A model generated the notes under the pieces. The model saw nothing but the letters and a program-made list of their open reading frames with translations, had not been told where the DNA came from and did no database searches. The translations under genes and the position numbers were made by a program. A stretch of 64,000 bases of DNA from the human T2T-CHM13v2.0 reference genome, Homo sapiens. Below, piece after piece: positions 41,501 through 44,146 of the stretch (within the stretch, counting starts at the first letter, position 1; each line of letters opens with the position of its first letter). The stretch lies in the NCBI RefSeq assembly GCF_009914755.1, contig NC_060935.1. One strand, 5' to 3'.

Positions 41501-44146
41501 TCAGCTCCTGTTATTGGTCTATTCAGAGATTCAGCTTCTTCCTGGTTTAGTCTTGGGAGAGTGTATGTGTCGAGGAATGTATCCATTTCTTCTAGATTTT
41601 CTAGTTTATTTGTGTAGAGGTGTTTGTAGTATTCTCTGATGGTAGTTTGTATTTCTGTGGGATTGGTGGTGATATCCCCTTTATCATTTTTTATTGTGTC
41701 TATTTGATTCTTCTCTCTTTTTTTCTTTATTAGTCTTGCTAGTGGTCTATCAATTTTGTTGATCCTTTCAAAAAACCAGCTCCTGGATTCATTGATTTTT
41801 TGAAGGGTTTTTTATGTCTGTATTTCCTTCAGTTCTGCTCTGATTTTAGTTATTTCTTGCCTTCTGCTAGCTTTTGAATGTGTTTGCTCTTGCTTTTCTA
41901 GTTCTTTTAATTGTGATGTTAGGGTGTCAATTTTGGATCTTTCCTGCTTTCTCTTGTGGGCATTCAGTGCTATAAATTTCCCTCTACAAACTGCTTTGAA
42001 TGCGTCCCAGAGATTCTGGTATGTTGTGTCTTTGTTCTCGTTGGTTTCAAAGAACATCTTTATGTCTGCCTTCATTTCGTTATGTACCCAGTAGTCATTC
42101 AGGAGCAGGTTGTTCAGTTTCCATGTAGTTGAGCGGCTTTGAGTGAGATTATTAATCCTGAGTTCTAGTTTGATTGCACTGTGGTCTGAGAGATAGTTTG
42201 TTATAATTTCTGTTCTTTTACATTTGCTGAGGAGAGTTTTACTTCCAACTATGTGGTCAATTTTGGAATAGGTGTGGTGTGGTGCTGAAAAAAATGTATA
42301 TTCTGTTGATTTGGGGTGGAGAGTTCTGTAGATGTCTATTAGGTCCGCTTGGTGCAGAGCTGAGTTCAATTCCTGGGTATCCTTGTTGACTTTCTGTCTC
42401 GTTGATCTGTCTAATGTTGACAGTGGGGTGTTAAAGTCTCCCATTATTAATGTGTGGGAGTCTAAGTCTCTTTGTAGGTCACTCAGGACTTGCTTTATGA
42501 ATCTGGGTGCTCCTGTATTGGGTGCATATATATTTAGGATAGTTAGCTCCTCTTGTTGAATTGATCCCTTTACCATTATGTAATGGCCTTCTTTGTCTCT
42601 TTTGATCTTTGTTGGTTTAAAGTCTGTTTTATCCGAGACTAGGATTGCAACCCCTGCCTTTTTTTGTTTTCCATTTGCTTGGTAGATCTTCCTCCATCCT
42701 TTTATTTTGAGCCTATGTGTGTCTCTGCACGTGAGATGGGTTTCCTGAATACAGCACACTGATGGGTCATGACTCTTTATCCAACTTGCCAGTCTGTGTC
42801 TTTTAATTGGAGAATTTAGTCCATTTACATTTAAAGTTAATATTGTTATGTGTGAATTTGATCCTGTCATTATGATGTTAGCTGGTGATTTTGCTCGTTA
42901 GTTGATGCAGTTTCTTCCTAGTCTCGATGGTCTTTACATTTTGGCATGATTTTGCAGCAGCTGGTACCGGTTGTTCCTTTCCATGTTTAGCGCTTCCTTC
43001 AGGAGCTCTTTTAGGGCAGGCCTGGTGGTGACAAAATCTCTCAGCATTTGCTTGTCTGTAAAGGATTTTATTTCTCCTTCACTTATGAAGCTTAGTTTGG
43101 CTGGACATGAAATTCTGGGTTGAAAATTCTTTCCTTTAAGAATGTTGAATATTGGCCCCCACTCTTTTCTGGCTTGTAGGGTTTCTGCCGAGAGATCCGC
43201 TGTTAGTCTGATGGGCTTCCCTTTCCCGACCTTTCTCTCTGGCTGCCCTTAACATTTTTTCCTTCATTTCAACTTTGGTGAATCTGACAATTATGTGTCT
43301 TGGAGTTGCTCTTCTCGAGGAGTATCTTTGTGGCGTTCTCTGTATTTCCTGAATCTGAACGTTGGCCTGCCTTGCTAGATTGGGGAAGTTCTCCTGGATA
43401 ATATCCTGCAGAGTGTTTTCCAACTTGGTTCCATTCTCCCCATCACTTTCAGGTATACCAATCAGACGTAGATTTGGTCTTTTCACATAGTCCCATATTT
43501 CTTGGAGGCTTTGCTCATTTCTTTTTATTCTTTTTTCTCTAAACTTCCCTTCTCGCTTCATTTCATTCATTTCATCTTCCATCGCTGATACCCTTTCTTC
43601 CAGTTGATCGCATCGGCTCCTGAGGCTTCTGCATTCTTCACGTAGTTCTCAAGCCTTGGTTTTCAGCTCCATCAGCTCCTTTAAACACTTCTCTGTATTG
43701 GTTATTCTAGTTATACATTCTTCTAAATTTTTTTCAAAGTTTTCAACTTCTTTGCCTTTGGTTTGAATGTCCTCCCGTAGCTCAGAGTAATTTGATCGTC
43801 TGAAGCCTTCTTCTCTCAGCTCGTCAAAATCATTCTCCATCCAGCTTTGTTCCGTTGCTGGTGAGGAACTGCGTTCCTTTGGAGGAGGAGAGGCGCTCTG
43901 CCTTTTAGAGTTTCCAGTTTTTCTATTGTGTTTTTTCCCCATCTTTGTGGTTTTATCTACTTTTGGTCTTTGATGATGGTGATGTACAGATGGGTTTTCG
44001 GTGTGGATGTCCTTTCTGTTTGTTAGTTTTCCTTCTAACAGACAGGACCCTCAGCTGCAGGTCTCAGATGGAAATGCAGAAATCACCCGTCTTCTGCGTC
44101 GCTCACGCTGGGAGCTGTAGACCGGAGCTGTTCCTATTCGGCCATC
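38515..44146 (-). mobile_element. Near full-length L1PA2/L1PA3 with spliced 5'UTR; inactive
   Basis: ORF1 (43942-42934) has a nonsense codon at about 43649 and an 8-nt deletion at about 43224. ORF2 (42870-38733; EN, RT FADD, C-domain) has a nonsense codon at 41812-41814 and an Alu insertion. The 3'UTR has GAG rather than ACA/ACG, so it is not L1HS-Ta/preTa. TSD cgRcaattctttta at 38501-38514 and 44147-44160. Confidence 0.95.
40027..40321 (-). mobile_element. AluYa5 nested in L1 ORF2
   Basis: All five Ya5 diagnostic bases are present (CATCCC, CTAAAAC, CGTAGTGG, CTACTTGGG, GATCCCGCC). 14-bp TSD tccatatgaacttt at 40013-40026 and 40323-40336. Confidence 0.9.

What the first reader, a model, noticed from the sequence alone, without database searches (positions are those of the whole stretch)
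43943..44146. L1 retrotransposed from a spliced RNA: 5'UTR intron precisely removed (SpIRE 97/790 type)
Seen: the L1 5'UTR is only 204 nt instead of about 900 and reads ...TTTCCATCTGAG|ACCTGCAGCTGAGGG..., junction between 44063 and 44062. Established: in the L1PA consensus CCATCTGAG is followed by the donor GTACCG (nt ~98), and ACCTGCAG is preceded by the acceptor CCAACAG (nt ~789). A clean GT..AG excision therefore defines a spliced integrated retrotransposed element. Inference: the spliced RNA still made ORF1p/ORF2p or was trans-mobilised. The copy lost most of its internal promoter, the antisense promoter and ORF0. Because it lies antisense in RNF169 intron 1, that antisense promoter would otherwise have driven L1-RNF169 chimeric transcripts.
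Basis: partly seen in the sequence, partly recalled or inferred. Interest (0 to 1): 0.8.

Follow-up and report, generated by a model that had tools for sequence, protein, structure and literature searches.

The report
Known spliced L1 insertion in RNF169
This is an old, now broken L1 retrotransposon copy made from an RNA whose 5' leader had been spliced, and it is already catalogued in print as SpIRE(97/790)-4, so the finding is correct but ordinary.

Summary
On the minus strand an L1 (38515-44146) has a 204-nt 5'UTR that reads ...CCATCTGAG|ACCTGCAGCTGAGGG, with the junction between 44063 and 44062. All 15 genomic L1 copies with an unspliced 5'UTR that I aligned read CTGAG|GTACC...(641-691 nt)...CCAACAG|ACCTGCAG, so the missing piece starts with GT and ends with AG; an AG repeat leaves a 2-nt ambiguity. 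The copy has a 14-bp target-site duplication with one mismatch, an interrupted A-tail and a TTTA/A nick site.

Larson et al. 2018 (PMC5860796, S1 Table and S1 Data) list this locus as SpIRE(97/790)-4: L1PA2, hg38 chr11:74756931, RNF169, opposite orientation, interrupted by an AluYa5. They say the four reference copies had been identified earlier by Belancio et al. 2006.

Added here:
- The four copies in this genome do not form a clade (AU p 9.5e-7) and share no exclusive sites, which points to independent splicing events.
- ORF1 and ORF2 are broken.
- The removed piece holds a 71-codon antisense ORF in 11 of 15 unspliced copies.
- Ape orthologues could not be checked.

The parts
44147..44160 (-). 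5' copy of the L1 target-site duplication (14 bp; differs at one position from the 3' copy)
   Evidence: read directly. Matches 'TSD 14, 5' 1 mismatch, TTTA/A' in Larson 2018 S1 Table.
44063..44146 (-). L1 5'UTR upstream of the splice donor (84 nt). The copy starts about 13 nt inside the usual L1 5' end.
   Evidence: Aligns at 96-100% to the start of unspliced copies. Searches show other copies extending further 5' (GGAGGAGCCAA...).
44062..44063 (-). Splice junction (exon-exon join) where 641-691 nt present in unspliced copies are missing
   Evidence: the missing piece begins with GT and ends with AG in 15 of 15 unspliced copies.
43943..44062 (-). L1 5'UTR downstream of the splice acceptor (120 nt), up to the ORF1 start codon
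   Evidence: 100% identical to at least 36 other L1 copies in the genome over query 83-204.
42920..43942 (-). ORF1 remnant: in-frame stop at codon 98 and a frame change after about codon 236
   Evidence: translation. Pfam L1 trimerisation and RBD-like domains in the 148-aa open piece 43136-43582.
38733..42870 (-). ORF2 remnant in at least three open pieces (352, 430 and 281 codons), also split by an Alu
   Evidence: ORF list; endonuclease domain in 41815-42870 and reverse transcriptase domain in 40297-41586. Unspliced relatives can have 1275 codons.
40027..40322 (-). Alu inserted later into ORF2, same orientation as the L1, with a 14-A tail. It is flanked by a perfect 14-bp duplication (40323-40336 and 40013-40026).
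   Evidence: gap in the alignment with a 14-nt overlap in the subject; sequence. Called AluYa5 by Larson 2018 S1 Table; the subfamily was not tested here.
38515..38732 (-). L1 3'UTR and interrupted poly(A) tail
   Evidence: Alignment to other copies runs to 38507-38523.
38501..38514 (-). 3' copy of the L1 target-site duplication
   Evidence: read directly.

Best explanation
An L1PA2-age source element was transcribed. The spliceosome then removed about 690 nt of its 5'UTR, using the L1 donor at nt 98-99 and the acceptor at nt 788-789. The spliced, polyadenylated RNA was copied into RNF169 intron 1 by ordinary target-primed reverse transcription at a TTTA/A nick, giving a near full-length L1 with a 204-nt leader. 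This is the published SpIRE(97/790)-4.

The copy was left with only the first ~84 nt and last 120 nt of the leader. It therefore lacked most of the sense promoter, the antisense promoter region and the antisense ORF, and did not found a lineage. It later picked up an Alu in ORF2 and stop and frameshift mutations.

Shown: the junction, the GT/AG ends, the insertion hallmarks, identity with the published record, and no close kinship with the other three copies. Inferred: splicing as the cause, probable mobilisation in cis, promoter loss, and an age of several million years.
For: Junction and coordinates.

GT...AG ends: 15 of 15 unspliced copies, of which 6 were already seen.

Hallmarks: a 14-bp duplication with one mismatch, an A-rich tail and a TTTA/A site.

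Published record with the same gene, orientation, duplication length, Alu interruption and (by eye) identical 5' junction sequence. Larson et al. state that the four SpIRE97/790 of the reference were previously identified.

Recurrence: four places in this genome carry the junction, each with different flanks and duplications.

Independent origins:
- 0 sites are shared exclusively by all four; pairs share 0-1.
- The label needs 4 changes on the tree, and holding the four together costs 80 log-likelihood units, AU p 9.5e-7.

Spliced-leader L1 RNA can retrotranspose when transcription is supplied: the 97/622 construct with a CMV promoter reached about 70% of wild type but about 7% from its own leader.
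Against: The AG microhomology means the sequence alone cannot exclude a 2-nt microhomology deletion. No orthologous or pre-insertion allele was examined, so the data do not directly show that the leader was already short at insertion. The genome search scored only 40 of 733 candidates, so the count of four is a lower bound. My comparison set was the first 17 listed hits, not a random sample, and one of them (L022) is itself a differently spliced copy. Promoter activity of the 97/790 leader was not measured by Larson et al..
Confidence: 0.95

Rival explanations
1. A full-length L1 inserted with a normal 5'UTR and later lost about 690 bp by a genomic deletion between the two AG dinucleotides.
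For: A 2-nt AG repeat lies at both edges. No orthologue was checked.
Against: Both ends would have to fall by accident on the GT and AG of the known L1 donor and acceptor. The identical junction occurs in three other, unrelated copies with their own flanks and in non-reference insertions listed in Larson 2018 S1 Table.
Confidence: 0.02
2. The element is a daughter of an older SpIRE97/790 that was itself transcribed, for example from a flanking promoter. It would then not be the direct product of a splicing event on an unspliced L1's RNA.
For: With an outside promoter a spliced-leader L1 retrotransposes at about 70% of wild type. Unsampled or lost progenitors cannot be excluded.
Against: It shares no exclusive sites with all three other reference copies, and 0-1 with each singly, which is the background level among all 210 pairs. 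Monophyly of the four is rejected. Its nearest rows are ordinary copies (L015, L022). There is no 5' or 3' transduced sequence.
Confidence: 0.03
3. The reverse transcriptase jumped within the RNA template during insertion and skipped the segment, without any splicing.
For: None specific. Short microhomology at the edges would be compatible.
Against: This gives no reason for the skip to begin at GT and end at AG, or to recur at the same two nucleotides in independent insertions.
Confidence: 0.01

Closest known systems
SpIRE97/790, specifically SpIRE(97/790)-4 of Larson et al. 2018 (PLoS Biol, PMC5860796; S1 Table, S1 Data)
   Same: Same locus: RNF169 intron, opposite orientation, PA2, TTTA/A site, 14-bp duplication with one mismatch, Alu interruption, interrupted A-tail. 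The 5' junction sequence printed in S1 Data matches the window by eye.
   Different: Nothing of substance. I count the L1 part as 5,322 nt (44146-38515 minus the Alu and one Alu duplication copy) against their 5,334, probably a difference in how the ends are counted. This is a different assembly (T2T-CHM13 versus hg38).
SpIRE97/622 (same paper), the commoner class (116 of 131 SpIREs)
   Same: Same donor and same mechanism. One such copy (L022, chr3) turned up by chance in my comparison set, retaining 164 nt where the window copy has none.
   Different: The acceptor lies about 168 nt further upstream, so more of the leader is kept.
Ordinary 5'-truncated or internally deleted L1 copies
   Same: Non-autonomous L1 remnants lacking promoter sequence.
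   Different: Here both ends of the leader are present and only an internal piece bounded by GT...AG is missing.

Membership tests
SpIRE97/790 | Internal 5'UTR deletion running exactly from the L1 donor G98U99 to the acceptor A788G789 | tested here: met
   15 of 15 unspliced copies have GT immediately after the window's left edge and AG immediately before its right edge. There is a 2-nt AG ambiguity.
SpIRE97/790 | Hallmarks of endonuclease-dependent L1 insertion: target-site duplication, 3' A-tail, TTTT/A-like nick site | tested here: met
   14-bp duplication (13 of 14 identical), interrupted A-rich tail, TTTA/A.
SpIRE97/790 | Otherwise full-length L1 (ORF1, ORF2, 3'UTR present) | tested here: met
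   collinear alignment to full-length copies apart from the Alu. ORF1 domains, endonuclease and reverse transcriptase domains.
SpIRE97/790 | Listed in the published catalogue at this locus | tested here: met
   (supplementary files 1 and 2 of PMC5860796).
SpIRE97/790 | Leader already short at the time of insertion (no allele or orthologue with an unspliced leader) | not testable with these tools
   No primate genome other than this one is held.
L1PA2 subfamily | Subfamily-diagnostic nucleotides | not tested
   Assignment taken from Larson 2018 S1 Table. Here I only have 1.6-2.5% pairwise difference from 20 other young L1 copies.
AluYa5 | Ya5 diagnostic positions | not tested
   Name taken from Larson 2018 S1 Table. 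One search shows a complete Alu with an A-tail and a perfect duplication. Rfam gave no match at gathering score.

The most novel reading that the evidence does not exclude
Spliced copies lack the antisense promoter and ORF0, so they may be less harmful than unspliced L1s when they land antisense in an intron. They would then be fixed there more readily, and this RNF169 copy would be an example of such tolerated insertions rather than a neutral dead end.
Probability: 0.04. Interest if true: 0.35.

Novelty: already known. Interest (0 to 1): 0.1.

Why it matters
It matters little beyond confirmation. The locus is one of four reference SpIRE97/790 elements already described and used to argue that splicing of L1 RNA yields promoter-poor, dead-end copies. 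The small addition is a direct test, in a complete human assembly, that the four copies do not descend from one another. That fits the published dead-end view.

Tried and rejected
- Rfam scan of 38400-44300 at gathering score: no match, so it gave no help in naming the Alu.
- Belancio 2006 (PMC1415225), Speek 2001 (PMC86790) and Belancio 2008 (PMC2278003): not held. What I say of them comes from Larson's text and reference list or from recall.
- L026 first looked like an L1 beginning exactly at the acceptor. One search shows this was an artefact of my cropping: the leader continues upstream.
- A shared TGTCG just upstream of the chr3 and chr11 copies is flank or duplication sequence at both sites, and I take it as coincidence.
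- A SpIRE master lineage was considered and rejected.
- The count of private differences (29 of 5,049 columns) is only a lower bound on post-insertion change, because it ignores sites that vary among the other copies.

Full report
**Observation**

Read on the minus strand, the repeat starts at 44146 with GATGGCCGAATAGG. It runs through ...GCATTTCCATCTGAG (last G at 44063) and continues directly with ACCTGCAGCTGAGGGTCCTG (first A at 44062). It reaches the ORF1 ATG at 43942-43940. The 5'UTR is thus 204 nt, and the junction lies between 44063 and 44062, exactly as reported.

**Comparison with unspliced copies**

A search of the window's own genome with the 204 nt gave four full-length matches: this one, and one each on contigs 9, 1 and 3. 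At least 36 more matches begin only at query position 83, that is, at the acceptor. Only 40 of 733 candidates were scored, so these are lower bounds.

I fetched the three other full matches and the first 17 partial matches as loci L011-L030 and aligned them.
- 15 of the 17 have a complete leader. In all 15 the window's left edge is followed by GTACC(G/A)GG, its right edge is preceded by ...TTCCAACAG, and 641-691 nt lie between (688 nt in 10 of the 15).
- The six copies examined are the same places as six of these 15.
- L022 retains 164 nt and is a copy spliced to the more upstream acceptor (97/622 type).
- L026 was cropped by my script. One search shows it also has the CCAACAG|ACCTGCAG context.
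- Both the two bases before the donor and the last two of the removed piece are AG, so the deletion has a 2-nt positional ambiguity.

**Anatomy of the element**

| Feature | Window coordinates (minus strand) |
|---|---|
| 5' target-site duplication copy, 14 bp | 44160-44147 |
| L1 | 44146-38515 |
| 3' target-site duplication copy (13 of 14 identical to the 5' copy) | 38514-38501 |

- The tail is an interrupted A-rich run, and the nick site reads TTTA/A.
- The body is collinear with full-length copies at 97.2-98.3% identity, except for a 296-bp insertion at 40322-40027.
- That insertion is an Alu in the same orientation as the L1. It has a 14-A tail and a perfect 14-bp duplication.
- ORF1 has a stop at codon 98 and changes frame after about codon 236.
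- ORF2 survives as open pieces of 352, 430 and 281 codons. These carry the endonuclease and reverse transcriptase domains.
- The copy is therefore coding-dead today.

**Already in print**

Larson et al. 2018 (PMC5860796) was seen as abstract, sections 7, 8, 9 and 14, passages, and supplementary files 1 and 2. [quoted passage not shown]

The filled-site sequence printed there matches the window's 5' junction by eye. [quoted passage not shown] 2006. I could not open that paper. My four genome matches on chromosomes 1, 3, 9 and 11 correspond to their four entries.

**Mechanism**

The published model is splicing of L1 RNA between G98U99 and A788G789, followed by ordinary target-primed reverse transcription. 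It fits everything seen.

For the related 97/622 leader, Larson et al. measured about 7-fold over vector against about 267-fold for the wild-type leader. Retrotransposition was about 70% of wild type with a CMV promoter but about 7% without. The 97/790 leader was not tested; they reasoned it would be at least as impaired. This makes mobilisation of the spliced RNA in cis plausible and later rounds unlikely. Both points are inferences for this copy.

**Test of independence (new here)**

I used 5,049 ungapped columns shared by 21 copies.
- The four SpIRE97/790 copies differ from each other by 1.74-2.32%. The window copy differs from the other 17 by 1.58-2.54%.
- No site is shared exclusively by all four. 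Pairs share 0-1 such sites, against a background over all 210 pairs of 146 with 0, 49 with 1 and 15 with 2-5.
- On the maximum-likelihood tree the label needs 4 changes. Forcing the four together costs 80 log-likelihood units (AU p 9.5e-7).
- Each copy has its own flanks and duplication. Two start at the normal L1 5' end and two about 13 nt inside it.

They are therefore separate events, in line with the 'dead-end' view. The caveat is that the comparison set is the first 17 listed hits, not a random or complete sample.

**Age**

The window copy's end branch is 0.0093 changes per site. This is an upper bound on post-insertion change, because it includes differences inherited from its source. 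At the neutral rates usually quoted for primates (recalled, roughly 0.1-0.2% per million years) this means some millions of years, consistent with the L1PA2 label. The degenerate tail and mismatched duplication of the L1, against the perfect duplication and pure A-tail of the Alu, order the two insertions.

**What was lost**

In 11 of 15 unspliced copies a 71-codon antisense ATG ORF lies wholly inside the removed piece. None of the four SpIRE97/790 copies has any antisense ORF of 40 codons or more in the leader. Criscione et al. 2016 (PMC4908685, passages) give ORF0 as 71 aa and place L1HS and L1PA2-8 antisense start sites within the first 600 bp of the leader.

The L1 is on the minus strand and RNF169 on the plus strand, so such a promoter would have fired in the gene's sense. 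That it would have produced chimeric RNF169 transcripts is an untested counterfactual. RNF169 does not occur in the main text of Criscione et al.; their supplementary tables were not examined. The hub's annotation lists no CAGE cluster or enhancer inside 38502-44148. This is weak evidence, since repeats map poorly.

**Rivals**

A microhomology deletion or a template jump cannot be formally excluded for this single copy without an orthologue. Neither explains GT/AG ends at the known sites recurring in unrelated copies.

**Verdict**

Noticed in passing
window 44364-44247 and 44246-44147 continuing at 38500-38481 (minus strand): The L1 landed near the end of the second unit of a two-copy, ~120-bp tandem duplication of host DNA (92.5% identical). 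The first unit therefore looks like a paralogous empty site just upstream of the element.
   Followed up: partly
L022 (G000:C3:12025480-12031990, minus strand): One of the 17 comparison copies, picked without regard to its leader, is itself a spliced copy of the 97/622 type. It uses the same donor and retains 164 nt before the 790 acceptor.
   Followed up: partly
L013 (G000:C3:133372357-133378500): The chr3 SpIRE97/790 copy (PA1 in Larson's table) has uninterrupted 338- and 1275-codon ORFs in this assembly, and a long A-rich 3' extension before its duplication, which fits the 3' transduction the paper lists. Its limitation would lie in the leader, not the coding regions.
   Followed up: no
window 40322: A single extra C sits between the 5' duplication copy and the first G of the Alu. 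It is either an untemplated base or a mutated 15th base of the duplication.
   Followed up: no
L017 and L021: Two unspliced copies have shorter leaders: 641 and 673 nt in the removed interval instead of 688. These are internal deletions that do not touch the donor or acceptor.
   Followed up: no
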